Source: a virus
Strand: one strand, 5' to 3'
Virus record (IMG/VR): IMGVR_UViG_3300005253_000063
Location: 1 to 64,000 of that record
DNA length: 64,000 nt
Both the position numbers and the translations under genes were made by a program. Position 1 is the stretch's first letter, and each line of letters begins with the position of its first letter. Under the pieces are notes generated by a model. That model saw only the letters and a program-made list of their open reading frames with translations, made no database searches and was not told the origin of the DNA. Shown here piece by piece: positions 5,704 through 26,019 of this stretch.

Positions 5704-5960
5704 GCGGCGAGCCTCCGTTCGGCGTCCGTGGCTACGAGCCGGTCGAGCCATGCGCGCTCTTCGCTCACGTATGCTCTGTACTCATAGCGTCGGAACCCAT
5801 GTTGGCCGCTGTACCTGATGCGCCTCTCGACCTCTTCGGCTTGGACGGCATCGTCGAGCGCGCGGTTCAAGCTGTTGAACGTTGCGTAGCATGGGGGGAT
5901 GTCGGCCTCGCCCAGACACACCCGCAACAGCTCTTCGCCAGTCCGCCACCAGCCGGTCAT
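5700..5960 (-). CDS. Hypothetical protein ending TDAERRLAA
   Basis: ATG at 5960 overlaps upstream stop. Confidence 0.55.
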   Translation of the reverse strand: MTGWWRTGEELLRVCLGEADIPPCYATFNSLNRALDDAVQAEEVERRIRYSGQHGFRRYEYRAYVSEERAWLDRLVATDAERRLAA

Positions 5961-6124
5961 CGACTGTGCGCCTTGACGAAGGTCACACACCGGTTCTCGC
6001 AGTCTACGATGTTAGCGAACCGCCCCGTCCACCCGACCTTCCCGACCTTGAGGACGCGACCGCAGCTGCACTTGAGCCTCTCGCCCAAGCGGATCCGCGC
6101 CTCGGTCTCGGGAGTGAGCTTCAC
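5957..6124 (-). CDS. Small zinc-ribbon protein, paralog family A
   Basis: EARIRLGERLKCSCGRVL...CENRC. Confidence 0.55.
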   Translation of the reverse strand: MKLTPETEARIRLGERLKCSCGRVLKVGKVGWTGRFANIVDCENRCVTFVKAHSR

Positions 6125-6141
6125 GCGGAGCGCCCCGTTCG

Positions 6142-6285
6142 TGGAGTGAGCGGGACTCGAACCCGCATCAGGTACCGTCCCTCCGACCAACTACGCAAAA
6201 CCCCTTCTTTCGAGAGGGGACAACGCTTGGTATCGGCTTGGGTACCACGGTCTTTCGACCGGCTTGTCCGTTCGGCCATCACCCC
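6142..6285 (-). ncRNA. tRNA-like RNA (144 nt) with acceptor stem, D-loop and T-arm but no canonical anticodon loop
   Basis: GGGGTGA/TCACTCC-A acceptor (G3-U70); TGGCCGAACGG D-region; perfect T-arm GCGGG-TTCGAGT-CCCGC; interior is a CGGTC-GAAA-GACCG hairpin plus a long arm closed by GGTACC/GGTACC. Confidence 0.75.
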
Positions 6286-11286: not shown

Positions 11287-11522
11287 TCAGATGGTGGAGG
11301 TTGTGGCGACTGAAGGCTTGGGAACGACATCTACGCGCAGCGCAGATCCGCATAGACGTGTTCAAGGAAAACAAATACGAGTGGGATCCCCGCCAGCGCG
11401 AGCATCGCCTGAACATGCTCGAACACGACTGCGCGCTCGCTGCGTTCGAGGTCGAGTCGCGCAAGGCGATCTTGTGGCCCGATCCGAAGCTACTGCCGTT
11501 GGCAAAGGTGCGCGATGAGTGA
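11283..11522 (+). CDS. Hypothetical protein, paralog of 6725-7000
   Basis: ATG 11283 after AGGAGG. Confidence 0.65.
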   Translation: MIRWWRLWRLKAWERHLRAAQIRIDVFKENKYEWDPRQREHRLNMLEHDCALAAFEVESRKAILWPDPKLLPLAKVRDE

Positions 11523-11615
11523 ACGATTGCATCTGGATAGCCGAATGGTGCTTACCGCCCGCCCGCCCGATACCTCATCCGTGATAGAGCTGGACGGTGG
11601 AAGATACGCGAGACG

Positions 11616-11978
11616 ATGACTGCCACCGGCTACCATCGCGGAAACTTGATGTACTTTGACAGCGCCGCGCAAGCATGGTGCTACATGGACACTGAGCAGC
11701 CGGTCGCCGACGCGCCGGACAGGCAGTGCGGGTTCTGTGGGCTCGGTAGCACGCCGGAAGGACATGACGGATGCTTGGGCGCGTTGCCGGGAGTGATGAA
11801 TGCGTGTTGCGGGCACGGACGGCAAAAAGAAGCCTACGTGCAGTTCAACCCGGACGCGCGGATCAGCGGTACCGAAGCGTTGAACTGGATCATGGCTACA
11901 ACAATCCGCCTCACCGTTCATGGGGAGGATGCGGACGAAATGCTCGACAAACCGATGTCCACCGCCGTGAAGCCGTAG
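11616..11978 (+). CDS. Hypothetical Cys-rich phage protein
   Basis: CGFCG...GHDGCLGALPGVMNACCGHG. Confidence 0.7.
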   Translation: MTATGYHRGNLMYFDSAAQAWCYMDTEQPVADAPDRQCGFCGLGSTPEGHDGCLGALPGVMNACCGHGRQKEAYVQFNPDARISGTEALNWIMATTIRLTVHGEDADEMLDKPMSTAVKP

Positions 11979-11996
11979 GTTGCGAAGGTGAAGTAG

Positions 11997-12377
11997 ATGA
12001 ACGCTCACGACACGGTGTATGCCGAGCTAGACCGACTGGAGCCCAACGTCAAGCGGACGCTGCTCCAGACCGTTTGGACCAACTACTTCGAGGCGGACTC
12101 CGAGTTACGCGCTTGGGTCCTGCGGCGGAGCGCGACTCACGGCGTTGCGGACGAGCTGCGCGCGGCGGATGCGAGATGGCGGCTTCGAGAGAAAGCCAAG
12201 CTGCGCGGCAACGTCCACTTGATTGGTTGCAAGCCGAACGGTCTGGTGACGATCATGGCTCCGCCCGCCCAACTGTCAAAGGAGAACGCGCTGGAGTTCG
12301 CTGCGCGGGTCGTCGCGATGGCGATGCCCGACGATGGCGAGTTCGAGCAGGTCCTCGATGCGGTCCGCAACACGTGA
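11997..12377 (+). CDS. Hypothetical protein with internal ADARWRL motif
   Basis: Stop TGA lies inside the first array repeat cgTGAgcc. Confidence 0.6.
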   Translation: MNAHDTVYAELDRLEPNVKRTLLQTVWTNYFEADSELRAWVLRRSATHGVADELRAADARWRLREKAKLRGNVHLIGCKPNGLVTIMAPPAQLSKENALEFAARVVAMAMPDDGEFEQVLDAVRNT

Positions 12378-12528
12378 GCCATGGGTAGAGCGGCATCCCC
12401 ACTACACAAGCGCGAGCCGATGTACACGCGACACCCCTTCGAGAGACGCGAGCCGCAGTTTTCACGATCACCCACAGTCAGAGCGCGAGCCGATCGGGTT
12501 GCGAAAAGCCGCGGTCGATGCGCAAGTC
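12373..12528 (+). repeat. TIGR-like array 1 (4 units)
   Basis: Edge repeats at 12373, 12411, 12447, 12484, 12521 with CGACACCC-like loop repeats midway. Confidence 0.8.
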
Positions 12529-12535
12529 TAAAGGC

Positions 12536-12733
12536 ATGGCCGAACCAGTACGCATCTCCGATGTGACCGTGGTCCGCGAGACGGACCTGGCACTGCTCTG
12601 CGATATCGAGGGCGAGGAATATTGGATTCCCAAGTCGCAGATCCACGATGACTCGGAGGTGTACGAAGACGGCACCGAAGGCGACCTTGTCATCAGCGCG
12701 TGGCTCGCGAAACAAAAGGATCTTGCGGGGTGA
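12536..12733 (+). CDS. Small acidic phage protein between arrays 1 and 2
   Basis: ETDLALLCDIEGEEYWIPKSQI...WLAKQK. Confidence 0.75.
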   Translation: MAEPVRISDVTVVRETDLALLCDIEGEEYWIPKSQIHDDSEVYEDGTEGDLVISAWLAKQKDLAG

Positions 12734-12734
12734 A

Positions 12735-13570
12735 CGCGAGCTGTCAACGAAGCGGTACCCTATTAGCCGACGCGAGCCGACGCCAAAGCGACAACCTAGG
12801 CAGAGACGCGAGCCACCGACTTGACGACACCCGTCCATCTGGCGCGAGCCGCAATCGTAACGTCGCCCAGAACTAAGGCGCGAGCCGCGGTTGTAGCGTC
12901 ACCCGCAGTTGCCATGCGAGCCACTTTGCGGACGACACCCTATCTTCGCGCGCGTGCCGATTGTCGTGCGACCCCCGATGGCTTCACGCGTGCCGTGCCT
13001 AATGCGTAACCCGGAGATGAGACGCGAGCCTTGGCTCAAACGGCTCCCAGTCGTCGACGCGCGAGCCATACGAGTTGCGACACCCGCTGGACCCGAGCGA
13101 GCCGTATCACACGCGCCAACCATCAAACACACGCGAGCCGGATAGGCAACGACCTCCATGCACAAAGCGCGAGCCGATCAGAGGACGTCACCCTACCAAG
13201 CGGCGCGTGCCTCTTCAACACACGACACCCGTCACAGATGCGCGAGCCCATGCTCACGCGACACCCAACGGACCTACGCGTGCCTGCAAGACTCGTTACC
13301 CGTCTTCGCAGCGCGTGCCAGATAAGAAGCGACTTCCGATGTATGAGCGCGAGCCCCAACTCCAACGACCCCCGCTGTGGTTGCGCGAGCCTTGATAGAT
13401 GCGACCTCCGTTGCTCCAACGCGAGCCGTGTCCGTATGACCCCCTATGGATCTACGCGAGTCGAAGATGTAGCGACACCCGTTCAAGCAGCACGAGCCTT
13501 CCCAAGCACGACATCCTCGCCTGCCGCGCGAGCCTTGTGAGCAGCGACACCCACGCAGCGAATGCGGGCC
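12735..13570 (+). repeat. TIGR-like array 2 (23 units of ~36 bp)
   Basis: CGCG(A/T)GCC at 12735, 12771, 12807, 12843, 12879, 12915, 12951, 12987, 13023, 13060...13527, 13563; loop repeat CGACACCC-like; two unique ~10-nt segments per unit. Confidence 0.93.
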
Positions 13571-13595
13571 AACAAACAGTCAACCGGAGGATCGA

Positions 13596-13802
13596 ATGAG
13601 TCGAACCAAGAAGGGTGTAGTTGTATCGCAAGAGCGGTCATTGCAGGGACCTGCAGGAGACGCCGAGGACGGTAAGGGCGAGTCCATCAACGTGACGGTC
13701 ATGCTCGACGAAAATTTCTCAATGCGATTCGAACTGCCGGCTGAGGAAGCGTCGGAGTGGTACGTCGGGCGGAAGGTCAAGTTGAAGTTGCAGGCGGACT
13801 GA
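13596..13802 (+). CDS. Hypothetical protein
   Basis: SD GGAGG; TGATG coupling to the methylase. Confidence 0.65.
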   Translation: MSRTKKGVVVSQERSLQGPAGDAEDGKGESINVTVMLDENFSMRFELPAEEASEWYVGRKVKLKLQAD

Positions 13803-14572
13803 TGGTCGACGTGCTGGTCGAGCTGTGTGCTGGGTCGGCGGCGTTGACGCGGTGGTGTAGCGGAGGATGGAAACTCGTTTCGTACGCGGGTGGCAAGGAC
13901 GGCTACGCGGAGATCATCGCGGACCTCATGGACCTACGGCGCGTCGAGCGAGTCCTCCTCGCGGAGCCTGGGATTTGGCACGACGTCTGGGTTGCTTTGA
14001 CGTGGGGTCTCTCGGATCGCGTCGCTGACGTGGTCGAGCAGTGGCAGTATGAGGACGCGCGGACGCTCTGGGATGCACTTCGTGGCGGTCGTGGTCAACA
14101 CGACCACGAGTGGGTCCGTGCGGCACGTGCATTGGTTCTCGTTGCGGGGACGCACGGCGGACACGAGCGCGGCGGATTCAAGGGCCTCCACGTCAACCGT
14201 CCGAGTGTCGACGGCTTCATCCCGTCGCGCGGTTCACTCGCGTGGCGGCTCCGCGAGGTACCCGAGCTTCCGCCAATCGAAGTCTTCAAGTATGCGGCCG
14301 ACGTCGAGCCGTTCGCCGGCGCCTGCGTCTACATCGATCCGCCGTACAAGGGGCGGTCGGGTTACGATCACGCGCTGACGCGGTTCGAGGTCATCGAGCT
14401 TGCGATGGCGTGGAAGAATGCGGGCGCCCGCGTCGTGGCCGTGTCGGAGGCGGCGCCTCTTCAATTCGACGACAGTTGGACGACACACGAACTCACGGCG
14501 GCTCGGCGTGGTCAGGTGCGCCGCAATTCCAGATCGGCGCAGGAGTGGTTGACGGTGTACAAGAAGACGTGA
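13802..14572 (+). CDS. DNA adenine methyltransferase (D12/Dam-like)
   Basis: ELCAGSAA, SYAGGK and catalytic YIDPPY motifs. Confidence 0.8.
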   Translation: MVDVLVELCAGSAALTRWCSGGWKLVSYAGGKDGYAEIIADLMDLRRVERVLLAEPGIWHDVWVALTWGLSDRVADVVEQWQYEDARTLWDALRGGRGQHDHEWVRAARALVLVAGTHGGHERGGFKGLHVNRPSVDGFIPSRGSLAWRLREVPELPPIEVFKYAADVEPFAGACVYIDPPYKGRSGYDHALTRFEVIELAMAWKNAGARVVAVSEAAPLQFDDSWTTHELTAARRGQVRRNSRSAQEWLTVYKKT

Positions 14573-14647
14573 GCCGTGCACGCAGCGACATCCGCACTTG
14601 CAACGCGAGCCGTGCACCCAGCGACAACCAAACGCGAAGCGCGATAC
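14568..14647 (+). repeat. TIGR-like array 3 (2 units)
   Basis: Edge repeats at 14568, 14604, 14640; loops CGACATCC and CGACAACC. Confidence 0.8.
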
Positions 14648-14657
14648 AGTCCTAGCG

Positions 14658-15104
14658 ATGGCTGACGAGCTGCCACCTTTCGATCCTGAGAAGTTCGACG
14701 GCATCGCCGTCACCCACGAGCGCCTGCTTTGCGCGCGTCACGGCGAGCCGTATCGCGCGCAGTGGCCGAAGGGTTTCGCGATCACGGTGGTCGCGCTGAT
14801 GGACTACATCTTCAAGCGTGACGACGTGGCGGCCGAGGCGCGCGAGTTGGCTGGTTGCGGGCCGGGCGACAAGCCGGAGCCGAAGGTCGTTGAGCAGGTT
14901 CTCGATCGGATTCCCGCCTGCTGCCGTGTGCACACCAAGCAGCTCCGCGAGGTCTACGTCAAAGCGAAGATCGGAACGCGTGCGCGCTGCGAGGATTGTC
15001 GACGGAAACGGTTTGGTACAAGCTACCTCTCGCAGGAGCGCGAGTTCGCGCATCTGTGCTTCGACTGCGTGCTCGACCCGGATCGCTGGAGGTCGTACAA
15101 CTGA
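14658..15104 (+). CDS. Hypothetical Cys-rich protein
   Basis: LCARHGEP...CEDC...CFDC. Confidence 0.65.
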   Translation: MADELPPFDPEKFDGIAVTHERLLCARHGEPYRAQWPKGFAITVVALMDYIFKRDDVAAEARELAGCGPGDKPEPKVVEQVLDRIPACCRVHTKQLREVYVKAKIGTRARCEDCRRKRFGTSYLSQEREFAHLCFDCVLDPDRWRSYN

Positions 15105-15217
15105 TGGGCAAACGTCTGGACTTGTTCAAGCACTTCTTCATGACCGGCTCGTTGCCGCTGCTCGTCTTCTTCATCGTCCTTGCGGTGGGGGTGCTGCTCG
15201 TGGTGTGGTTGAGGTAG
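15104..15217 (+). CDS. Small single-TM membrane protein
   Basis: LPLLVFFIVLAVGVLLVVWLR; TGATG coupling. Confidence 0.5.
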   Translation: MGKRLDLFKHFFMTGSLPLLVFFIVLAVGVLLVVWLR

Positions 15218-15218
15218 C

Positions 15219-16721
15219 TTGAGCGCACAACAGCAACGACCCGACGAGACCATGGCGGAAGTGCATGATCGTGCACGTCGACAGGTCGCGCTGCGCGTTC
15301 AGGTTGCACGTGGCAACGTCAATGAATTTTGCGAGCTGGTCCTCAAAGATGAGCAGACCGGGCAGCCGATTGAGCAGGCGTCGATCCATGAGGAATGGCA
15401 CCAGCTTGCCGAAGAGAACGATCGCGTAATCTTGTGGTCATTCACCGAAGGCGGGAAGACACAGCAGCTCTCGATCGCGCGCACGCTGCACGCGCTCGGT
15501 CGTGACACGAGCACACGCGTTGCGATCATCTCGAACACGCACGAGCAGGCGTCGAAGGTCATTCGCGCGGTCGCACACTTTATCGAGAAGTCCGAAGACT
15601 TGCGCGTGGTCTTCCCCGACCTAAAGAAGTCGGAGCCCTGGACCGGGCATCACCTCTACATCGACCGTTTGTTCCGCGCAAAAGATCCGAGCGTTCAGGC
15701 ATGCGGCGTTCACGGCGCGATCGTCGGCTCTCGCATCGATCTGCTCATCCTCGACGACATACTCGACTACGAGAACTGCCAGACCGTTGCTGCTCGCCAA
15801 GACCTTTGGGACTGGTACCACTCCGCGCTCGCCAGCCGTTTGACGGATCGCGCCCGCGTGCTCATCATTGGCACCGCGTTCCACCCCGAAGATTTGCTGC
15901 ACCGGCTCGCGGGGAATCCAGCTTGGATTGCAAAGCGCTTCCCCGTCATCTCCGACGCCGGTGTCTCCGCTTGGCCGGAGAAGTGGTCGGCGTCCCGCAT
16001 CCAGCGCCGCCGCGAGGAGCTGGGTCCGCTGGAGTTCAGCCGGCAGATGCTGTGCAAGGCGCGCGACGAGTCGCAGGCGCGGTTCCAGCGTGAGTGGATC
16101 GATCGGTGTATCGCAGAGGGCTCGGGGATGCGTCTCGTTCGTTCGCTCGCCGAGTTCGAGCAGCTCGATCCCGAGCTACACAAAATGGTCCAAGATGGGG
16201 AATGTTCAACGTACACCGGTGTCGACCTTGCGGTGCAACGCCACTCTGCGGCGGGACTCACCGTACTCTTCACGATCCTTGTCGACCCTGACGACTGTCG
16301 GCAGGTTCTTGCAATCGAAGCGGGTCGCTGGTCGGGGCCCGATATCGTTCGTCGTATCGTCGGCGCACACCAACGGTTCAACTCAGTGGTCGTTGTCGAG
16401 AACAACGCGGCGCAGGACTTCGTGCTTCAGTTCGCTCGCGAGGCGAGTGCAGTTCCGATCATGCCGTTCACTACTGGGCGCAACAAGGCGCATCCCGAGT
16501 TCGGCATCGAGTCGCTCGCGGCGGAGATGGCCGGTGGCAAGTGGCTCATCCCAAACGATGGCGGCAAGCTCGACCCCGAAGTCGAGGCATGGATCAGCGA
16601 GATGTTGTACTACGACCCGCGCTCGCACACAGGTGACCGGCTTATGGGATGCTGGTTTTCGCGCGAAGGTGCACGACTCGGCGGCCATAATTGTGCGGTG
16701 AATGCGCGGATCATCGGGTAA
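15219..16721 (+). CDS. terL: Terminase large subunit
   Basis: Walker A-like EGGKT, Walker B LLILDD, coupling motif IGT, nuclease GVDLA...VENNAAQ...HTGDRLM. Confidence 0.92.
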   Translation: MSAQQQRPDETMAEVHDRARRQVALRVQVARGNVNEFCELVLKDEQTGQPIEQASIHEEWHQLAEENDRVILWSFTEGGKTQQLSIARTLHALGRDTSTRVAIISNTHEQASKVIRAVAHFIEKSEDLRVVFPDLKKSEPWTGHHLYIDRLFRAKDPSVQACGVHGAIVGSRIDLLILDDILDYENCQTVAARQDLWDWYHSALASRLTDRARVLIIGTAFHPEDLLHRLAGNPAWIAKRFPVISDAGVSAWPEKWSASRIQRRREELGPLEFSRQMLCKARDESQARFQREWIDRCIAEGSGMRLVRSLAEFEQLDPELHKMVQDGECSTYTGVDLAVQRHSAAGLTVLFTILVDPDDCRQVLAIEAGRWSGPDIVRRIVGAHQRFNSVVVVENNAAQDFVLQFAREASAVPIMPFTTGRNKAHPEFGIESLAAEMAGGKWLIPNDGGKLDPEVEAWISEMLYYDPRSHTGDRLMGCWFSREGARLGGHNCAVNARIIG

Positions 16722-16748
16722 AAAGCGCGAAGTTCGTACAAGTCAAAC

Positions 16749-17045
16749 GTAGAGCCGTAGCACTTGCGGCGACCGAAGTTCCGACGCGAGCCATGAGGGA
16801 TTCGACAACCAGTCATTGAAATGCGAGCCGACCAGAGGACGTCATCCACGCCACGAGTGCGAGCCTTGTCTCAAACGTTCTCCAAAGAAGATGCGCGAGC
16901 CTTCGTACCGACGTCGCCCGCTATCTCTGCGCGAGCCGATCAGCGCGGGCCAACCATGGATGGATTGCGAGCCGAACACTTTGCGTCGACCGTCGCCATA
17001 ACGCGAGCCGCATGCTTCACGACATCCAATAGACGAGCGCGAGCC
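16749..17045 (+). repeat. TIGR-like array 4 (8 units)
   Basis: Edge repeats at 16749, 16785, 16822, 16858, 16894, 16930, 16966, 17002, 17038. Confidence 0.9.
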
Positions 17046-17046
17046 G

Positions 17047-17304
17047 ATGACTGCTTACTTCCCCGGCACCCTACGTTGCGATGAGTGCGGTGAGATGCGC
17101 ACTGCGAAGTTCGCGCTCACGAGCAGGGGAGTAACGGTCGTGCCGAGCATGCTGATAGACAGTTGGACGGCGGTCGAGAACCCGAGGACGCCGCTCGAAC
17201 CAACGCCGATGCTCTGTTCCGACAAGTGTCTCTTGGCCCACGACGCGCGCAAACGTCTTACGTCGGAGGTCATCGCCGGGCGCGTGGAGATCAAGAAGGC
17301 GTGA
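17047..17304 (+). CDS. Hypothetical zinc-binding protein with HDARKRL motif
   Basis: CDEC...CSDKC; ATG directly follows the last edge repeat. Confidence 0.6.
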   Translation: MTAYFPGTLRCDECGEMRTAKFALTSRGVTVVPSMLIDSWTAVENPRTPLEPTPMLCSDKCLLAHDARKRLTSEVIAGRVEIKKA

Positions 17305-17666
17305 TCGAACTAGTCTCAACCCTCTGTGTCGACTGCGGTGCACCGGTCGGCCCCGACGAGCAGCAGTGTGCGGAATGTTCCGACGCGCGGGATGCCCGTT
17401 GGCGTCTTGACGGGATGGAGCCAGACGAGGGTGCGCAGATTGTCTGCGACCACGTCACCAACAGTATCCTTCGTCTATGCAAAGATGGCGTGCTTCGCCA
17501 CGATCTCCTTGGTCGGCTCTTCGTACACTTCAAGAAGTGGCACCCGGAGATCGAAAGTATTGAGAGCGACCATGACGTCTTGAGAGACGCGCTCATCTTG
17601 CGCGTGAAGTTGTACGGTAAGCCCGCCGTAGAAACGTTGGTCCTTAGTCGGGAGCTATTTCAATGA
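17301..17666 (+). CDS. Hypothetical zinc-ribbon protein with RDARWRL motif
   Basis: GTG overlap; CVDCG...CAEC. Confidence 0.6.
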   Translation: MIELVSTLCVDCGAPVGPDEQQCAECSDARDARWRLDGMEPDEGAQIVCDHVTNSILRLCKDGVLRHDLLGRLFVHFKKWHPEIESIESDHDVLRDALILRVKLYGKPAVETLVLSRELFQ

Positions 17667-18076
17667 GCGAACCGCAACACGCCAACCTGTCGCTCGACTT
17701 CGACTTTGTCTCTTGCTACCGGTGCGGCTCACCGATCTGGATGGAGACGTGGATTCTGAAGAAGCGCAGGAACGACCATCAGGATTTTTACTGCTACAAC
17801 GGTCATCGCCAATCGTTCTCCGGCGAGACCGACGCTGCGCGTCTGAAGCGACAGCTTGAAACTGAACGCGGCAAGACGCGGATGGCACGCGACGAAGTCG
17901 GCAATGAGCGGCGCCGCGCTGACCACCTAGGGCGTAGTCGCGACGTATACAAAGGCAAATTGAAGGCGACGAAGCAGCGCATCAAGAACGGCGTGTGTCC
18001 GTGCTGCAAGCGTACGTTCAGGGACCTTCACGACCATATGAGGACGAAGCATCCGGCCTATGGCGGGCAAGCCTGA
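17663..18076 (+). CDS. Zinc-finger/coiled-coil phage protein
   Basis: CYRCG...FYCYNGH...CPCCKRTF..L..HMRTKHP (C2H2). Confidence 0.75.
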   Translation: MSEPQHANLSLDFDFVSCYRCGSPIWMETWILKKRRNDHQDFYCYNGHRQSFSGETDAARLKRQLETERGKTRMARDEVGNERRRADHLGRSRDVYKGKLKATKQRIKNGVCPCCKRTFRDLHDHMRTKHPAYGGQA

Positions 18077-18353
18077 CCGTGCTGCGCGTGAGGCCGAGCT
18101 ACGCCTCGGCGGTGTCGACATCCCGTCGGGCTTCGTGAGCCTCGACGAACTTGCCGACAACGTCCGCGCGATCTCCCAGGCGGTTGGCAAGGTGCTCAAC
18201 AATGGTCCGCTCACGCGGCGGGCGATCGAGGTGCTGCTCCTGGACCACCTACCCAACCGCGGGCCGCAGAAGGTTGGCCTTCGTGCGCTTCAGCAAGTGC
18301 TCGACGTGCTCAGCGAGCTTGAAGAGTTGGTGCTCCTCAAGCCTAATGACTAG
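18060..18353 (+). CDS. Hypothetical protein
   Basis: 97-aa ORF; stop lies in the first unit of array 5. Confidence 0.6.
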   Translation: MAGKPDRAAREAELRLGGVDIPSGFVSLDELADNVRAISQAVGKVLNNGPLTRRAIEVLLLDHLPNRGPQKVGLRALQQVLDVLSELEELVLLKPND

Positions 18354-18708
18354 CGTCGCCCAGTTCTATCACGCGGGCTGAAGATCATGCGCCAACCGAA
18401 GGAAGGGCGCGGGCCATAGGAGACGGGACACCCGAACGCACACGCGGCGCTGTATACCTCACGGCACCCTAACAAGTAGCGCGAGCCGCAGTCTCGACGA
18501 CACCCGAAATACAAACGCGAGCCTAATGACTAGCGGTCACCCGAATGAGCTACGCGAGCCGACGAAGAAGGCGCCACCCAGATGTCCTAGGCGGGTCATG
18601 AAAACGCTGACGCGCGATCAAGTCGTGGGATAGCGCCGCCGGTGTAATGCCGCCCATGGATGATGCGCGCGCCGGACGAATCACGACGCCCTTTGAAAGG
18701 AGCGAACC
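18336..18708 (+). repeat. TIGR-like array 5 (~10 units, partly degenerate), directly upstream of tasA
   Basis: Edge repeats at 18336, 18372, 18408, 18444, 18480, 18516, 18553, 18590, 18666; last repeat abuts ATG 18709. Confidence 0.85.
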
Positions 18709-19650
18709 ATGCCGCCGAAGCGAGTGAACCCAGCAATCGCCTCCGACCGTACTCGAGAGCAGACACGTCTTGGGTTGAAGAAGAAGGTCCGCATGTTCTA
18801 CGACCTGCAGCGGATGCGGCTGCAGTGCGGCGGACGGATTCAACCGAAGGCCGAGGGTAACGAGATCCAGCTTCACGAAGTCGACCAGGTGATCTTGGAA
18901 AACCGCGCGAAGGAGTTGCTCATCGCGGAGAAGGCCGCGCTGCGCGATGTCCAGGACCACCTCAAGACGATGCTCTTCTACACCGAGATCCTCAGCGACA
19001 AGTCGCGCTTCAAGGGACTCGGTCCGACAATGGCCGGTGTTATCCTCAGCGAGTTCGACATCGCACGCGAGGATACCGCTTCGCAAATGTGGGCGTTCGC
19101 CGGACTCGCTCCGGTACCGGCGCAGCGTTGCAAGAAGTGCAACCACCTCGTCGAGCCGGTCAAGGACGCCGACCGCTTCAAGCACGCCGTCAAGAAGGAA
19201 GCACACTGCGGGGTCGACGTGCTTCAGCGGTCGGCGATCTACGACAGCGGCAAGTCGATGCGACCGAAGCGCGGTGAGAAGCTGCCGTACAACGCGTTCC
19301 TGAAGACGAAGCTCGTCGGTGTTCTCGGGCCGTGTCTCATCAAAGCGAACTCGCCGTGGCGCAAGTTGTACGACGACTACAAGCATCGCAAGGCCAGCGC
19401 GGGCTGGGGCACGGGCGACGCGCACCGACACCATGCGGCGATCCGCTACATGGTCAAGCAGCTCCTCCTCGCGATCTGGAAGGACTGGCGCGCGTTCGAG
19501 GACTTGCCTGTCCGTCCGTCGTACCAAGAGGAGAAGCTCGGGCACACGCACGAGGCCACCGCTGTCGGCAGCAACGGCAAGTCGAGCGCCGACGTCGAGG
19601 CGTTGATGGACTCACCCGAGGTCGAGGAAGAGCTGGCGAACGCGCTGTAA
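18709..19650 (+). CDS. tasA: TIGR-associated Nop-domain protein, TasA type (IS110 C-terminal-like, no RuvC/HNH)
   Basis: Coiled-coil N-terminus then KGLGPTMAGVILSEFDI...ASQMWAFAGL...KRGEKLPYNAFLKTKL...HRHHAAIRYMVK..L..IW..WR; no DEDD domain; 36-bp arrays on both sides. Confidence 0.82.
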   Translation: MPPKRVNPAIASDRTREQTRLGLKKKVRMFYDLQRMRLQCGGRIQPKAEGNEIQLHEVDQVILENRAKELLIAEKAALRDVQDHLKTMLFYTEILSDKSRFKGLGPTMAGVILSEFDIAREDTASQMWAFAGLAPVPAQRCKKCNHLVEPVKDADRFKHAVKKEAHCGVDVLQRSAIYDSGKSMRPKRGEKLPYNAFLKTKLVGVLGPCLIKANSPWRKLYDDYKHRKASAGWGTGDAHRHHAAIRYMVKQLLLAIWKDWRAFEDLPVRPSYQEEKLGHTHEATAVGSNGKSSADVEALMDSPEVEEELANAL

Positions 19651-19862
19651 TGGAGGCGGCACCCGGTCCTCACGCGCGAGCCGTTGGCACTACGACAACC
19701 GTCCCGCTGACGCGAGCCGTTCTCCTCACGCCGCCCGTGGTACTCGCGCGCGCCTCACCACTTGCGCCGCCCTCTACTGACACGCGAGCCATAGCAGATA
19801 CGACGACCACTCGATCTACGCGAGCCGTTCTGAAAGCGTCGCCCGAAGTCCTAGCGCGCTTC
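19639..19862 (+). repeat. TIGR-like array 6 (6 units), directly downstream of tasA
   Basis: Edge repeats at 19639 (degenerate), 19675, 19711, 19747, 19783, 19819, 19855; exact 36-bp period. Confidence 0.9.
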
Positions 19863-20164
19863 TAACTCATCGCGCCGTCGCTGGGCACCCAACACTGACG
19901 CGTGTCCGGCTCCCACTCCATTCCGTCCAGCTCTGCGCGCAGGTACGCGGGCAGGTGGTCGAGGATGCGCTGGAGGCCCCAGTCGAGATCGCCGCGCAGC
20001 TCTTTGAAGATGCGCGTACAAATTTCGAAGCGTCGTTTGATCTCCGCCATCGTCTGCGGACCCTGGTCTACGATGAAGCTCCCAAAGATGACGCGCTCGA
20101 ATCCGCCGACCACGATCCCGAGATCGCGAGGGTTGCTCATCAGCGCGGCTAGCGTTCCAGTCAT
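19862..20164 (-). CDS. Hypothetical protein
   Basis: SD GGAGG; last gene of the portal block. Confidence 0.7.
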   Translation of the reverse strand: MTGTLAALMSNPRDLGIVVGGFERVIFGSFIVDQGPQTMAEIKRRFEICTRIFKELRGDLDWGLQRILDHLPAYLRAELDGMEWEPDTRQCWVPSDGAMS

Positions 20165-20167
20165 GGA

Positions 20168-21235
20168 TCAAACCTCCGGGACTACCGTACTACGGCAAAA
20201 ACCATGCAGCGGAGGCTGTTGGATGCCGTTCTTCTCCAGGCCCTTGTCCGACATCGTGTTGGTGTAGGTACCGATCTTGTCGGCCTCGCCGAAGCCCGGC
20301 TCTTGTACCACACCGATGCTCTGCTGCGATCCGTCCTCACGTTCGAACGCCATGACGTCGCGGCCCTTCGAATCTTTGCGGTCGCGGACCCAGGGGAGCG
20401 CAGCCTTGACCTTGTCCGAGTCGCGTTCGCCGCGCACGCTGTCCAGTCGCTTGAGACCCGAGTCGACGGTGAACGTCTTCTCGTGCATGAATCGACAAAC
20501 CTCGGTCGTCGCCTCGTCGAGGACGGCTTCGAAGATGTAGCGATCGAGTCCGGCCTCCTTGAAGGAAAGCAGGCTCGATGTTGTACGCGCTCGGTTCACG
20601 AACGACGACGCGATGACCTGCCAATACGATTTGCTTTGTCTCAACGAGGACGCGGTGAGTTTGCTTTGGAGTTGTTCGGCGATGGCCTTGCGCCCGAGTC
20701 CTCGTTCGAGTCCGTCGGAGACGATGCGTCTTGCCTGTGCGGAGAAGTTCTGTCGCCGCAAGCCGAGCTGGTCGGTGATGAAGTTGGCTTGGCTGCGCGC
20801 GAGTTCGCGCGTCGCGCGTCGGTCGACGAGCCGGGTCGCGCTTTGGATCTTCAGTCGGAACCGTCGCTTGACCGCCTTCCGCGTCTGGCCGACCACGCGA
20901 GTTCCCGACACTTCGAAGACTTTGTCCACCTTCGGCAGGATCGCCTTCGGCAGCGGCGCAAGTGACCTTGTCGCTGCCGTGACGGCTCGTGCGCGTTGAG
21001 CCGCGCTAAGATTTGGCCAGTCAACGTCAAGCCGTTTCAGCGCGGCGCGCAGCACCTTCGCTTCGTCCCCCGCCGTCGCGCGTTTCAGGCTTCGCGAGAG
21101 ACGGTTGACGATCGTGAGGAAGTCGCCGCGGTTCGTTGGGTTGAGGGCCTTCGCGACATCGAGGTGATAGACGTCGCTGAGTATCTCCTCGATCGCAGCG
21201 GCGCCGTCCTCGTAGAGGTCAGTCAGGCTCTCCAT
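20168..21235 (-). CDS. Head morphogenesis protein (Mu gpF / SPP1 gp7 family)
   Basis: AVLDEATTEVCRFMH...PPLHGFCRSTVVP; follows portal; likely start ATG 21235. Confidence 0.85.
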   Translation of the reverse strand: MESLTDLYEDGAAAIEEILSDVYHLDVAKALNPTNRGDFLTIVNRLSRSLKRATAGDEAKVLRAALKRLDVDWPNLSAAQRARAVTAATRSLAPLPKAILPKVDKVFEVSGTRVVGQTRKAVKRRFRLKIQSATRLVDRRATRELARSQANFITDQLGLRRQNFSAQARRIVSDGLERGLGRKAIAEQLQSKLTASSLRQSKSYWQVIASSFVNRARTTSSLLSFKEAGLDRYIFEAVLDEATTEVCRFMHEKTFTVDSGLKRLDSVRGERDSDKVKAALPWVRDRKDSKGRDVMAFEREDGSQQSIGVVQEPGFGEADKIGTYTNTMSDKGLEKNGIQQPPLHGFCRSTVVPEV

Positions 21236-24119
21236 CGTCCGCTTCGTCCTTCGCGGCGAGGAACTCGTCCTCGGCCTGTCGTCGCTCTTCCGCGCGGATC
21301 GCGTCTCGAACCTTGATGAGGTGTGCGGCCTGCGCGACGAGACGCCGCTTCCCGATTGACGGCGGGACCTGTGGTCGCCGACGGGCTTGCTCTGGGTTGA
21401 GTAGCCCACCTTCCTCGGCGAGGTCCTGGACCGTGAGGTCGGCCTTGTCTCCACCCCTGTCCGGTTCCTCGCCAGGCCCGGCCCCAACGACTGAAAGCTG
21501 CAACGGCTGTTCGGTCCAGAACGCATCGATGCGTTTGAACTCTCGGTTGAAGACGTCCTCGGCAAGCTGCCGCGCCTCGCTTGGCACGATCGCACCGGCG
21601 CGCAGCAGCGTTGCGATCATCTCGGTCAGCTGCGCCGCGTCCTTTGTGATCGGACCGTTCGAACGGAAGCGCCAGAACCGGATCCCCATGTCGGTGAGGA
21701 TCTTGCGGTTGATGATGAAGTCGAACTCCTCGCGCTCCGGTTGGAAGACCTGCGCCTCGGCGAAGACCAACGCCGCTTGAGCTGTGTTACCCTGCACGGC
21801 GACTTTACCGTTGCGGCGAGTGACGTAGAACCCGTACTCTGGTACGGAGAAGCAGTACACTCGGCCTTGGTAGTGTACCCGCTCCGGCAGGTCACGGAAC
21901 TCGGCGTCGCGGCCCACCGAGATCAACACGCGCCAACATGCGCGCCGGTTGTCGTGCGCGGCGTAGTGCAGCGACAGCGTAGCACGGTGACCGAGTCGGA
22001 GCGCGAGCACCTGTACGTCGTCGCACAGGCCGCGAGACACCGAAGGATAGAACCCGCTGTTGCGGCCCGGTCTCGAATCCCAGTGTCCGTCGCCCGCCAT
22101 CAGAGCATTGAACAAGATTCGCGTCTGCTCGGGACACAGATCGCGGGCGATGTCCGGGATCCGCTTCGAGCCAGAGTCCGAGCCGCAGTGCTCGCGCAGC
22201 CACGACGACAGGCACCGGTTGCTCAGCTGCCACCGACGCATCTCGGCGACCTCGTCGCAGCTCTCAGAGAAGGCCCATCCGGTTCGCTTCAAGCACGCGC
22301 GGATCGCGTCGGCCGTCCCACCGTCACGCTGGCTCAAGGTCACGAGGTACGGTGCGCTCGGGTGATTCGTACTCAGGAGCGACCCCTCGCTGAGCCAGTA
22401 ACCGAGAAAGGCCACGAAGTCGTCGCCGGCTACGCTCGACACATGGTCGTGCCCTCGCTCGATCTGGCACCCGTCGTCCTTGGGCAGCGTGAAGCCGTCA
22501 AGCCGCGTGCCGTCGGCGTGCCCCACCGTGGTCTTGAGCGCGTAGCGCGGCCACGGAATCGACTGCGACGCGTGGACCTCGAACCGCTCAGCGCCGAGTG
22601 GGCGCGCGAGCATCCGGTGATCTTCGGTCACCATCACGTCGGCGACCGCAGATCGGAAGTGCAGCAGCTCCTCATCCACCTCGTACACGTGCAGCGCATC
22701 GGGTCTCGTGAACTCAACATTGTCCTGGCCCGGGTGGTACGCGGCGATCTCGTCGTCGTCGCGGAACTGATCGAGCCGCAGCCACCCCCGCCGCGTGAGC
22801 GTCTCCGTGCGCTCGTCGTAGCAGGCGCGGTTGAAGTCGCGGATGTCACCGCGGAGCATTCGCGGCAGGCGGAAGCTCATTCCGACCTTATCGATGTTGC
22901 GCTCGTCGTACTTCTGGAACAACGCGTCCTGGTAGATCGCTTGCGTCAGCGGCTTGAGTTCGATTTTCATCTTGCCGCCGCCGGCAGTCGCGTCGCTCTC
23001 GCCTTCGAGCACGAGAATTTTGTGGAAGTTGCGTCGACCCTTCGATGCGTTCTTGACGTGATCCTCTACCCTGCTGATCGTCTCTGACGACACGCGTCCG
23101 CCCGACACGAGCATGACCATCGGGGGGATCGACTTGTTCTCGAAGTAGAGGAAGTTCACCTCTTCACTCTGGCGCGAGCCCATGACCGAGAGCAGGTTGC
23201 CGATCCAACGTGGCGTGCCGTACGCTGAGCGTGGGTTGTGAATCTTGAAGTGTAGGACCTCGTGGGCGGGTCCGTCCATCGGGTCGTTCTTCTTCAGCGC
23301 CTCAACATCCTTGAACTCCTTGCCGGTCTTGCGCGAGATGACCCGTGGGTCGCCGAGTTCCTTGAACCAGACCGACTTCCCTTCGACTACCTGGACCAGC
23401 TTGCGGAACTGTCGCTGCATCTTGATCGTATCGAATTCAAGATCGGAGATTTTGATCTTGGTTTCGACGTCAACCGCTGTTGCGTCGAGCGACAGCAGGC
23501 GCATGGTGTAGCCGGGGATGTAATTGAACTGCGCGATCTCCCCGGCGCCGTTGCGAATGATTTCCCAGTAGGCGTTGCCCAGGACTTCGATGTCTTGCCG
23601 CATTCGTCTGCGTAGTGAGACGAAGCTCACGTCCGCGCAGCAGAACTCGAAGAAGTTGACGAGCTTTGATTTCTCGCGTCGCATGAGGTCGTGCAGTTCG
23701 ATGATCTTCGCGTCCACCTCTTCCTTGGTGGGATCCAGGTTCTCGAACGTGGTTTCTTCGCCGGCTTCTTGCTGCCGCAGTCGTTCGATGTAGATCGCGT
23801 TCGCGATTTGCGCGGGCGCCTCGTCGGATTCGAGGTTGATCACTGGCTCGAACTTGTGGCCGAAGCCGTCGATGTTGGTGACGTAAGCGTCGATGTTCTG
23901 GCGGAGCGCGTTCGAATGCTCCAGCAGTAGGCACAGCGTCTCGGGGTCGAATGGCGGCTCGATCGCGCCGAGCTGCGAGAACGTTCGTGCCAGCTCGTCT
24001 TCGCGTACCTGGACCGCGTTCGGCTGCTCAACGTCGTCCCGACCAACCAGGTGTGCCTTGACGAGCGGAACCACGTCCGCCAGCTCAGCTACGGCTGCGT
24101 TCACGTCCTCCTGCTTCAT
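21219..24119 (-). CDS. Portal protein (PBSX-like) containing an intein
   Basis: LGNAYWEIIRNGAGEI, EVLHFK, YGTPRW, FRLPRML; intein interrupts DFNRA|TAQAA. Confidence 0.9.
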   Translation of the reverse strand: MKQEDVNAAVAELADVVPLVKAHLVGRDDVEQPNAVQVREDELARTFSQLGAIEPPFDPETLCLLLEHSNALRQNIDAYVTNIDGFGHKFEPVINLESDEAPAQIANAIYIERLRQQEAGEETTFENLDPTKEEVDAKIIELHDLMRREKSKLVNFFEFCCADVSFVSLRRRMRQDIEVLGNAYWEIIRNGAGEIAQFNYIPGYTMRLLSLDATAVDVETKIKISDLEFDTIKMQRQFRKLVQVVEGKSVWFKELGDPRVISRKTGKEFKDVEALKKNDPMDGPAHEVLHFKIHNPRSAYGTPRWIGNLLSVMGSRQSEEVNFLYFENKSIPPMVMLVSGGRVSSETISRVEDHVKNASKGRRNFHKILVLEGESDATAGGGKMKIELKPLTQAIYQDALFQKYDERNIDKVGMSFRLPRMLRGDIRDFNRACYDERTETLTRRGWLRLDQFRDDDEIAAYHPGQDNVEFTRPDALHVYEVDEELLHFRSAVADVMVTEDHRMLARPLGAERFEVHASQSIPWPRYALKTTVGHADGTRLDGFTLPKDDGCQIERGHDHVSSVAGDDFVAFLGYWLSEGSLLSTNHPSAPYLVTLSQRDGGTADAIRACLKRTGWAFSESCDEVAEMRRWQLSNRCLSSWLREHCGSDSGSKRIPDIARDLCPEQTRILFNALMAGDGHWDSRPGRNSGFYPSVSRGLCDDVQVLALRLGHRATLSLHYAAHDNRRACWRVLISVGRDAEFRDLPERVHYQGRVYCFSVPEYGFYVTRRNGKVAVQGNTAQAALVFAEAQVFQPEREEFDFIINRKILTDMGIRFWRFRSNGPITKDAAQLTEMIATLLRAGAIVPSEARQLAEDVFNREFKRIDAFWTEQPLQLSVVGAGPGEEPDRGGDKADLTVQDLAEEGGLLNPEQARRRPQVPPSIGKRRLVAQAAHLIKVRDAIRAEERRQAEDEFLAAKDEADDGEPD
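21786..22823 (-). mobile_element. Intein (346 aa) with LAGLIDADG homing endonuclease
   Basis: Starts CYDERTETLTRRGW; block B VTEDHRM; FLGYWLSEGS and LMAGDGH; ends VYCFSV...VTRRNGKVAVQGN followed by Thr. Confidence 0.9.
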
Positions 24120-24176
24120 CCCGCACAAGACCCTAGCACGGTTTGGTATTTCGCCGCGATACTCGCGGAGGCCCTG

Positions 24177-25521: not shown

Positions 25522-26019
25522 GTGGATGCTGGTACTGTAGAGCGCTTTACGAAATCGCCGTGGTGGCCCACTCGCACAGATTCAGCGGGCTACGTCGTCA
25601 TCGCGATAGACGGTCGAGCAGAGAAGGAGCACCGCCTGGTAGTCGCTGCAGCGCTGGGCCGACCGCTGCGGTCCGATGAAGTAGTGCATCACGTGAACGG
25701 AATCAGAGCCGACAATCGAGCAGAGAACTTGCGGTTGTTGAGCTTAGCAGAACACACGCGGTTACATCGACGGCAGCCATGGAAGCACCAGATCGCGCTG
25801 TGCGCGTGGTGTGGATCAAACGTCGATAGGCTTATGGACAACGGTCGGCCGTCCAAACGCGCATTCTGTGACATCGCATGCAGGCGCGCGTGGGGTCGAC
25901 GCGTGCGTGAGTGTGTTTGTGTTACGTGTGGTGCATTGTTCGAACGGCGCGGTTCTAGAAATAGGCGCCCAAAATTCTGCTCGTTGCAGTGCTCAGCAAA
26001 GTCTGCTTGTGGGCACTGA
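25522..26019 (+). CDS. HNH homing endonuclease with C-terminal zinc fingers
   Basis: EHRLVV...[18 protein letters not shown]; CxxC...FCxxxC repeats. Confidence 0.85.

What the first reader, a model, noticed from the sequence alone, without database searches (positions are those of the whole stretch)
12373..19862. Phage-encoded TIGR-Tas-like RNA-guided system: nuclease-less TasA with ~53 dual-spacer units split over six arrays
Seen in sequence: a strictly ~36-bp unit, edge repeat YGCGAGCC - 10 variable nt - loop repeat CGACACCC-like - 10 variable nt. The last variable base is almost always a purine, so 9 nt are free. Arrays lie at 12373-12528 (4 units), 12735-13570 (23), 14568-14647 (2), 16749-17045 (8), 18336-18708 (~10) and 19639-19862 (6), all on the + strand. 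The last two flank a 313-aa protein resembling the IS110 C-terminal/Nop domain with no RuvC or HNH domain. Established: TIGR-Tas systems use 36-nt tigRNAs with two 9-nt spacers between edge and loop repeats, bound by Nop-domain Tas proteins; TasA has no nuclease. Inference: this is a high-GC, large-repertoire TasA system acting as a programmable DNA binder (repression, or interference with competing elements or the host), with a CG-rich repeat variant.
Basis: partly seen in the sequence, partly recalled or inferred. Interest (0 to 1): 0.95.

Follow-up and report, generated by a model that had tools for sequence, protein, structure and literature searches.

The report
Phage TIGR-TasA with six guide arrays
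A 118-kb uncultured phage carries a genuine copy of the recently described TIGR-Tas RNA-guided DNA-binding system, ordinary in kind but unusual in having about fifty guides split over six arrays that fill the gaps between neighbouring phage genes.

Summary
Six + strand arrays of ~36-bp units (edge CGCGAGCC, 10 nt, loop CG-N4-CC, 10 nt) lie at 12373-19862. 47 units are canonical, 4 have variant loops and 2 are degenerate. They occur nowhere else in the 118,354-bp genome.

The 313-aa ORF at 18709-19650 is a TasA:
- it passes NCBIfam's curated TIGR-Tas model;
- its profile hits solved TasR and TasH;
- its model (pLDDT 90.4) aligns with TasR at Z 20.4, over the part after the RuvC domain;
- it keeps the tyrosine/histidine pair that processes pre-tigRNA in SpTasH.

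Homologues sit beside 36-bp arrays in 30 of 34 distinct loci, and the closest ones use the same repeats. The arrays are non-coding.

The kind is published (Faure 2025; Xu 2026, TasA as repressor), and this scan has met it before on other DNA. So this is a new member, not a new system.

Unusual points: the arrays fill every intergenic gap of a co-directional gene block that includes the terminase gene, and the largest array lies more than 5 kb from tas. Natural targets were not found; the phage's own genome is not one. Expression is untested.

The parts
12373..12520 (+). TIGR array 1: 3 canonical units plus 1 with a variant loop. The first edge repeat (CGTGAGCC) contains the stop codon of the upstream gene 11997-12377.
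12735..13570 (+). TIGR array 2, the largest: 23 units (22 canonical, 1 variant loop at 13420) plus a terminal edge repeat at 13563. It ends 25 nt before the ATG at 13596.
14568..14647 (+). TIGR array 3: 2 units plus a partial terminal edge. The first edge repeat contains the stop codon of the methyltransferase-like gene 13802-14572.
16749..17045 (+). TIGR array 4, directly downstream of terL: 8 units (7 canonical, 1 variant loop) plus a terminal edge repeat that ends 1 nt before the ATG at 17047.
18336..18701 (+). TIGR array 5, upstream of tasA: 7 canonical units, 1 variant loop and about 2 degenerate units. The first unit overlaps the 3' end of gene 18060-18353. The last unit holds the ribosome-binding site of tasA.
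18709..19650 (+). tasA: a 313-aa solo coiled-coil + Nop protein. It has a conserved Tyr272/His279 pair and a clade-specific Cys141-x2-Cys144...His159...Cys167 insertion.
19639..19862 (+). TIGR array 6, downstream of tasA: 6 units plus a partial terminal edge. The first, degenerate unit contains the tasA stop codon. The array ends at the 3' end of a convergent - strand gene.
15219..16721 (+). Terminase large subunit gene, lying between arrays 3 and 4 (context, not part of the system).
   Evidence: phrog_38, E 1.9e-58
11997..18353 (+). Co-directional gene block whose intergenic gaps the arrays fill: ORFs 11997-12377, 12518-12733, 13596-13802, 13802-14572 (methyltransferase-like), 14658-15104, terL, 17047-17304, 17301-17666, 17663-18076, 18060-18353.

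Best explanation
This is a dual-repeat TIGR-TasA system of a tailed phage.

Shown: the six arrays and tasA lie on one strand with no room for separate promoters or terminators, and none was detected.

Inferred from that: they are most likely transcribed together with the neighbouring genes.

Inferred by homology:
- A TasA dimer binds each unit through the motifs shared by the edge and loop repeats: purine-CG at the start and CC at the end.
- It cuts in the edge repeat with its Tyr272/His279 pair, as SpTasH does.
- It keeps a 36-nt tigRNA with two roughly 9-nt spacers.
- The two spacers pair with opposite strands of an 18-bp DNA site. With no nuclease, the complex occupies the site and blocks transcription or replication, as shown for MbTasA.

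The roughly 50 guides do not match the phage's own genome. The likely targets are the unknown host or rival mobile elements.
For: Protein:
- NCBIfam NF052498.1 (TIGR-Tas) scores 104.9 bits against a cut-off of 100.
- A profile of 76 homologues hits TasR 9mty at E 1.9e-28 and TasH at E 5.9e-18, over the parts behind their nuclease domains.
- The AF2 model has pLDDT 90.4 and pTM 0.86. All of Foldseek's top 10 are TasH or TasR complexes.
- VIA-align gives Z 20.4, rmsd 1.7 and 191 residues aligned to TasR 110-302, and Z 19.5 to TasH 66-300.
- Tyr272 and His279 align with SpTasH Y289 and H296 (passage in PMC13421893). They are kept in 75 and 62 of 76 aligned homologues.

RNA side:
- 47 canonical units. 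Edge and loop share CG...CC, a purine before and a non-C base after.
- Edge positions 2:7 can pair in 50 of 56 copies and positions 3:6 in 52 of 56. For six of eight control position pairs the range is 1-10 of 56. Of the other two, 2:8 pairs in 52, because position 8 is also C; 1:8 pairs in 4.

Association:
- 36-bp arrays sit next to tas homologues in 30 of 34 distinct loci.
- The closest loci (53-62% identity) use the same two repeats.

Repressor activity of a TasA: Xu 2026, section 12.
Against: No expression or binding data exist for this locus.

No target was found. Against the phage's own genome and against 1.16 Mb of fetched loci, real spacer pairs score like mismatched pairs.

Published arrays typically end in a terminator. 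None is detected here.

His279 is replaced in 14 of 76 homologues, so self-processing may not be universal in the clade.

Spacer GC depends on position in the same way in both spacers. That shows a constraint I cannot explain.
Confidence: 0.88

Rival explanations
1. The repeats are translated coding repeats (12-residue periodicity) under protein-level selection, not guide RNAs.
For: The 36-bp period is a multiple of three. An open frame of 169 codons runs through part of array 2. In one relative (L007) units do lie inside the 3' end of the tas reading frame.
Against: - GC by codon position is flat in the arrays (0.54-0.71). In the 11 neighbouring genes it is about 0.55-0.79 / 0.37-0.52 / 0.66-0.84.
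- The longer arrays have stops in all six frames.
- Units of 35, 37 and 38 bp shift the frame.
- In 39 canonical units every unit-frame has 8-15 stops, as in shuffled spacers.
Confidence: 0.02
2. The protein is a remnant of an IS110-family transposase, and the repeats are unrelated intergenic repeats such as REP-like elements.
For: Pfam and PHROGs call it a transposase: PF02371 at E 1.5e-6 and phrog_4285 at E 2e-28. IS621 and ISCro4 recombinases align at Z about 15.
Against: - The NCBIfam IS110 model scores 23.2 bits against a cut-off of 140.
- The fold begins at the coiled coil, with no N-terminal catalytic domain.
- TasR and TasH score higher than the IS110 recombinases.
- The same repeats accompany homologues in unrelated contigs.
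Confidence: 0.02
3. The arrays' main role is in cis. They act as TasA-dependent cleavage cassettes that cut the polycistronic message into separate mRNAs and so tune expression of terminase and its neighbours. DNA targeting would be secondary or lost.
For: The arrays fill every gap of the gene block. Stop codons lie inside first units, and start codons follow 1-25 nt after last units. No promoter-like or terminator-like site lies in or after the arrays. The processing pair is conserved. None of 59 phages with a related terminase has arrays or tas nearby.
Against: - The spacers are diverse: 1,081 pairwise comparisons give only 6 near-identical spacer A pairs and 1 spacer B pair. That fits a guide repertoire better than mere cleavage sites.
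- Co-transcription is inferred only.
- Relatives keep their arrays directly beside tas.
Confidence: 0.15
4. The locus is a decaying, no longer functional TIGR system.
For: Only 29 of 56 edge repeats are exact. Units at the array borders are degenerate, and arrays 1 and 3 are very short.
Against: - tasA is intact, with the family's invariant residues.
- Its codon-position GC pattern is as strongly gene-like (0.63/0.40/0.84) as that of its neighbours.
- 47 units keep both motifs.
- Truncated border repeats are normal for TIGR arrays (Faure 2025, section 4).
Confidence: 0.05

Closest known systems
Dual-repeat TIGR-TasA systems (FpTasA of Flavonifractor plautii; MbTasA), Faure et al. 2025 (PMC12045711) and Xu et al. 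2026 (bioRxiv 10.64898/2026.09.09.750476)
   Same: - A solo coiled-coil + Nop protein.
[quoted passage not shown]
- Arrays on both sides of tas, on the same strand.
- A phage host.
- A conserved C-terminal Tyr/His pair.
   Different: - Six arrays instead of one or two. They are separated by ten unrelated genes, including terL, and reach 6.3 kb upstream of tas.
- About 50 units, against 'most often 5 to 15' and a mean of about 16 per dual-repeat array (65,635 units / 4,126 arrays).
- No terminator-like site after the arrays.
- The leading motif is CG, not UG or AG, and the base after CC is variable.
- The protein has a Cys-x2-Cys...His...Cys insertion, conserved in 67-71 of 76 homologues. It is absent from TasR and TasH and, by eye, Cys-free in FpTasA.
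SpTasH of Salicola phage CGphi29 (PDB 9w03, 9w04, 21kl; PMC13421893)
   Same: - Fold match at Z 18-19.5.
- Edge core GCGAGCC.
- The catalytic processing residues Y289/H296, and R278, R286, E292 and K293, have identical counterparts here (alignment, residue list).
   Different: No HNH domain, so no cleavage is expected. H268 of SpTasH corresponds to Gln251 here.
TaTasR (PDB 9mty)
   Same: - The best structural match: Z 20.4, rmsd 1.7 A, 191 residues.
- The same edge core, with two potential base pairs across the edge repeat, as described for TasR (section 8).
   Different: No RuvC domain. TasR has Trp where this protein has Tyr272, and is reported not to cut its own precursor.
IS110/IS621 bridge-RNA recombinases
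   Same: The same RNA-binding coiled-coil + Nop-like fold, at Z about 15. The Pfam Transposase_20 signature is shared.
   Different: No catalytic domain. Arrays of many short guides instead of one bridge RNA. The curated IS110 model is not passed.

Membership tests
TIGR-Tas (dual-repeat, TasA subtype) | Tas protein with coiled-coil + Nop domain homologous to solved TasR/TasH | tested here: met
   NF052498.1 scores 104.9 bits against a cut-off of 100. Profile against PDB: TasR E 1.9e-28, TasH E 5.9e-18. Z 20.4 and 19.5. Foldseek's top 10 are all Tas.
TIGR-Tas (dual-repeat, TasA subtype) | No N-terminal HNH or RuvC nuclease domain (defines TasA) | tested here: met
   Model residues 14-284 align to TasR 110-302 and TasH 62-300, behind their nuclease domains. 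Only about 13 residues precede the first helix region. Pfam reports no other domain at E up to 10.
TIGR-Tas (dual-repeat, TasA subtype) | Array of ~36-nt units with two alternating short repeats and two ~9-nt spacers | tested here: met
   47 canonical units. Spacing is 36 bp, with some units of 35, 37 or 38. There are 8 free positions plus a purine and a non-C position in each spacer.
TIGR-Tas (dual-repeat, TasA subtype) | Box D-like and box C-like motifs shared (co-varying) between edge and loop repeats | tested here: met
   Both repeats read purine-CG-N4-CC-(not C). The closest relatives read CG...CCA in both repeats. The names box C and box D are taken from Faure 2025, section 8.
TIGR-Tas (dual-repeat, TasA subtype) | Arrays adjacent to tas and on the same strand | tested here: met
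   Arrays 5 and 6 abut the gene. The same holds in 30 of 34 distinct related loci.
TIGR-Tas (dual-repeat, TasA subtype) | C-terminal Tyr/His processing pair of dual-repeat Tas proteins | tested here: met
   Tyr272 and His279 align with SpTasH Y289 and H296. They are kept in 75 and 62 of 76 homologues. Activity was not tested.
TIGR-Tas (dual-repeat, TasA subtype) | Array transcribed and processed into 36-nt tigRNAs bound by Tas | not testable with these tools
   Needs small-RNA sequencing or RNA pull-down.
TIGR-Tas (dual-repeat, TasA subtype) | Tandem-spacer, RNA-guided binding of double-stranded DNA by a Tas dimer | not testable with these tools
A long helical hairpin (helices 16-42 and 57-85) is predicted. 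Binding needs a band-shift or reporter assay.
IS110-family RNA-guided transposase | N-terminal DEDD (RuvC-like) catalytic domain, passing the curated family model | tested here: not met
   NF033542.1 scores 23.2 bits against a cut-off of 140. The alignment to IS621 covers only chain residues 124-314.
CRISPR-Cas | Single repeat of about 25-36 nt alternating with spacers of similar size, plus cas genes | tested here: not met
   There are two alternating 8-nt repeats and 10-nt variable stretches. None of the 20 neighbouring ORFs scanned matches a Cas family in PHROGs.

The most novel reading that the evidence does not exclude
Guide production and phage gene expression are coupled. The six arrays are transcribed as part of one long message that also encodes terminase. 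TasA's own Tyr/His ribonuclease site then cuts that message at about 50 edge repeats. This releases guides and at the same time separates the cistrons, so TasA would control the stability or translation of its neighbours.

A corollary: arrays can work far from tas. In another phage with a 56% identical TasA, the only array lies about 45 kb away. Catalogues built on windows of a few kb would therefore undercount guides.
Probability: 0.2. Interest if true: 0.6.

Novelty: new member of a known kind. Interest (0 to 1): 0.3.

Why it matters
TIGR-Tas is a young field. Its natural targets, how spacers are acquired and what TasA does for a phage are all open questions (discussion sections).

This locus adds no new kind, but it is a rich natural example:
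- a complete phage genome;
- about 50 distinct guides;
- arrays wedged between packaging genes;
- the largest array beyond the +/-5 kb window used in the founding survey.

Three lines of work could start here. One is whether array transcripts are carved out of mRNAs. Another is whether remote arrays serve tas in trans. The third is what a large guide repertoire is aimed at, once the host is known. The position-dependent composition of the spacers, alike in both spacers, hints at a constraint on what can serve as a guide.

Tried and rejected
- **Self-targeting.** I built 18-mers from each of 47 spacer pairs in both strand arrangements and searched the phage's own genome with the arrays masked. 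The best real hits had 3 mismatches (5 of 94 queries). 372 mismatched-pair controls gave the same distribution. Rejected.
- **Targets in fetched DNA.** The same test on 1.16 Mb of fetched loci (98 loci; 11 duplicate or own stretches left out) also matched the controls.
- **Public-collection scans for 18-mers.** Not attempted. By my own estimate an exact 18-mer is expected about once by chance in a collection of that size. Scans are capped at one pattern each, and Xu 2026 notes the same false-positive problem.
- **RNA evidence.** No RNA holder listed. 3 DNA runs of one study hold the stretch, and 2 of them are marked as a possible source. No reads were laid.
- **Rfam.** 0 matches at E up to 1 over 11500-20500.
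- **RNA folding.** Six units fold no better than shuffles, z 0.18. This fits the dual-repeat type and rules out the stem-loop type.
- **Published catalogue.** Five peptides of the protein were searched in Table S1 of PMC12045711. Only a 12-residue C-terminal motif was found, in two catalogued relatives, one of them from the same contig as my locus L017. The held copy of the table is cut (9,182 rows), so whether this protein is listed stays open.
- **Linked methyltransferase.** The methyltransferase-like gene between arrays 2 and 3 has no homologue in 41 sequence stretches: 35 related Tas loci and 6 stretches of the second phage G001. It also has no look-alike in earlier windows, so no link is supported.
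- **Terminase relatives.** 0 of 59 loci have a Tas homologue. 11 show weak 36-bp periodicity, and the 3 strongest are coding or low-complexity repeats.
- **Genome collection.** The first scan, with the single protein, found nothing. The profile scan found 15 distant loci in assemblies of many phyla, which gives no host.

Full report
**Observation**

The sequence at 12373-19862 holds six + strand arrays of a ~36-bp unit.
- GCGAGCC occurs 59 times in the window against 28.05 +/- 5.70 in shuffles. 34 of these are + strand copies inside the arrays, spaced 35-38 bp.
- A strict two-motif scan of the whole genome gave 39 + strand hits, all at 12373-19819, and 2 scattered - strand hits.
- In register there are 56 edge positions: 47 with a canonical loop, 4 with variant loops, 4 terminal edges and 1 degenerate unit. 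A second degenerate unit appears.

The unit reads purine-CG-CGAG-CC-(not C), 8 free bases, purine-CG-N4-CC-(not C), 8 free bases.
- Edge position 5 and the four inner loop bases vary: 25 different tetramers occur in 47 loops.
- Edge positions 2:7 and 3:6 can pair in 50 and 52 of 56 copies. This fits the two base pairs described for the TasR edge repeat (Faure 2025, section 8).

**The protein**

ORF 18709-19650 encodes 313 residues.
- It passes NCBIfam's curated TIGR-Tas model (104.9 bits, cut-off 100) and fails the IS110 transposase model (23.2 bits, cut-off 140).
- Pfam and PHROGs call it a transposase. That is the old label of the family.
- Alone it hits TasR 9mty (E 2e-8) and TasH (E 6.1e-7) in the PDB. 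A profile of 76 homologues gives E 1.9e-28 and 5.9e-18.
- The AlphaFold model is confident: pLDDT 90.4, pTM 0.86.
- Foldseek's ten best chains are all TasH or TasR complexes.
- VIA-align gives Z 20.4 to TasR residues 110-302, Z 18-19.5 to TasH from residue 62-66 on, and Z about 15 to IS621 and ISCro4.
- The protein therefore starts where the nuclease domains of TasR and TasH end. It is a TasA.
- Tyr272 and His279 align with SpTasH Y289 and H296, the residues reported to cut pre-tigRNA. They are kept in 75 and 62 of 76 homologues.
- A beta-rich insertion at 136-182 carries Cys141, Cys144, His159 and Cys167, kept in 67-71 of 76 homologues. The insertion has no counterpart in TasR or TasH. Metal binding is my inference.

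**Relatives**

The family is large: 1,785 cluster representatives at E up to 0.001, and 917 at E up to 1e-10.

I fetched 35 loci with homologues, 34 of them distinct.
- 30 of the 34 show a 36-bp periodic array beside the gene.
- The four closest array-bearing loci (53-62% identity) use the same edge and loop repeats, followed by A.
- In a rough automated count, arrays in relatives lie within about 1.7 kb of tas (most within about 1.1 kb), and none is interleaved with other genes as here. Many of these loci are short.

One phage (G001, TasA 56% identical) has no array within 10 kb. Its only TIGR-like array, of about 8 units, lies about 45 kb from tas. G001 shares no other ORF product with this phage at E up to 1e-8. 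The gene therefore moves between unrelated phages.

**Context**

The window is the first 64 kb of a 118,354-bp virus record with terminal repeats, rated complete, at 62% GC.

It is a tailed phage with a contractile tail and its own replication genes. No integrase was seen among the 104 ORFs scanned.

The arrays fill every gap in a + strand gene block.
- Three upstream stop codons lie inside first units.
- Downstream start codons follow the last unit by 1-25 nt.
- The tasA ribosome-binding site lies in the last unit of array 5.
- No promoter-like or + strand terminator-like site lies in or after the arrays. Such consensus scans may not fit this host.

None of 59 phage loci with a related terminase has tas or arrays within 8 kb.

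**Rivals**

Translation of the repeats is rejected.
- Codon-position GC is flat in the arrays and strongly skewed in the genes.
- All frames of the longer arrays have stops.
- No unit-frame is spared stops relative to shuffles.

An IS110 remnant is rejected by the curated model and by the missing catalytic domain. Rfam has no match. The RNA folds no better than shuffles, as expected for dual-repeat rather than stem-loop arrays.

**Targets**

Real spacer pairs match the phage's own genome, and 1.16 Mb of fetched DNA, no better than mismatched pairs. The host is unknown.

The spacers are nearly all different. Of the 6 near-identical spacer A pairs, 4 link different arrays.

The free positions average about 46% GC. 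GC peaks at the third and sixth free position in both spacers (chi-square p 0.0017 and 6.8e-7). I cannot explain this. 160 pooled units of relatives do not show it clearly.

**Mechanism**

- Shown here: the anatomy, the homology and the conserved residues.
- Inferred from published work on other members: 36-nt tigRNAs (Faure, section 5); pairing of the two spacers with opposite strands (sections 6 and 8); self-processing by the Tyr/His pair; and repression without cleavage by a TasA (Xu, section 12).
- Inferred from the layout: co-transcription with the neighbouring genes.

**Novelty**

The kind is published, and this scan has reported TIGR-TasA loci on other DNA before.

In the texts I read I found no description of arrays interleaved with unrelated phage genes (term searches; library search). 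However, the figures, the supplementary PDF, the preprint's supplements and the TIGRSafari resource were not visible to me.

Arrays 1 and 2, with 27 units, lie 5.1-6.3 kb upstream of tas. That is outside the +/-5 kb examined by Faure et al. (section 24).

**What I saw of each paper**

- PMC12045711: outline; sections 4, 5, 6, 8, 10 and 24; passages; Table S1 part 1 and two searches of its held, cut copy.
- Xu et al. 2026 preprint: abstract; sections 5, 6, 10, 12 and 13; passages.
- PMC13421893 and the Guan et al. preprint: passages only.
- Other titles: search listings only.

Noticed in passing
G001 (record of locus L002), positions 5903-6200; tas at about 50.9-51.9 kb: A second, unrelated 101.7-kb phage encodes a 56% identical TasA, but its only TIGR-like array (about 8 units) lies about 45 kb from the gene. 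It shares only TasA with this phage (ORFs of 70 aa or more, E up to 1e-8).
   Followed up: partly
window 12373-19862, spacer positions: Spacer GC averages about 46% against 62% for the genome. It peaks at the third and sixth free position in both spacers (p 0.0017 and 6.8e-7). The cause is unknown.
   Followed up: partly
window 18336-18353 and 18516-18533: The first unit of array 5 overlaps the last codons of gene 18060-18353. It shares an identical 10-nt spacer A with the unit at 18516. Of 5 further near-identical spacer A pairs, 4 link different arrays (two of them arrays 2 and 4), while their spacer B differs.
   Followed up: partly
L007 10880-11020: In a relative with 61% identical TasA, TIGR units lie inside the 3' end of the tas reading frame. 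Xu et al. 2026 describe this as rare for dual-repeat arrays.
   Followed up: no
window 18709-19650, residues 136-182: A clade-specific beta insertion with a conserved Cys-x2-Cys...His...Cys motif, probably metal-binding. It is absent from TasR and TasH, and from the five most distant homologues in the alignment.
   Followed up: partly
window 21219-24128 (- strand): The portal gene carries a LAGLIDADG homing-endonuclease domain (residues 672-742), which suggests an intein. The DNA polymerase and helicase genes outside the window show similar foreign segments.
   Followed up: no
window 19862-24128 against loci L072, L079, L083, L090, L094: In phages with a related terminase, the portal, MuF-like and small downstream genes follow terL on the same strand. 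Here that block is inverted and converges on the tasA end of the operon.
   Followed up: no
G000 87.4-90.8 kb (outside the window; locus L111 4454-7760): A cluster of QueC-, QueD- and QueE-like genes and a guanine transglycosylase-like gene, with a ParB-like gene. It suggests 7-deazaguanine modification of the phage DNA.
   Followed up: no
window 25811-30400: A 1,529-aa ORF joins a D12-class adenine methyltransferase domain (residues 363-529) to an XkdF-type serine protease domain (1410-1525).
   Followed up: no
window 13802-14572: A weak methyltransferase-like ORF (phrog_56, E 1.4e-4) sits between arrays 2 and 3. No homologue lies beside tas in 35 related Tas loci and 6 stretches of G001.
   Followed up: yes
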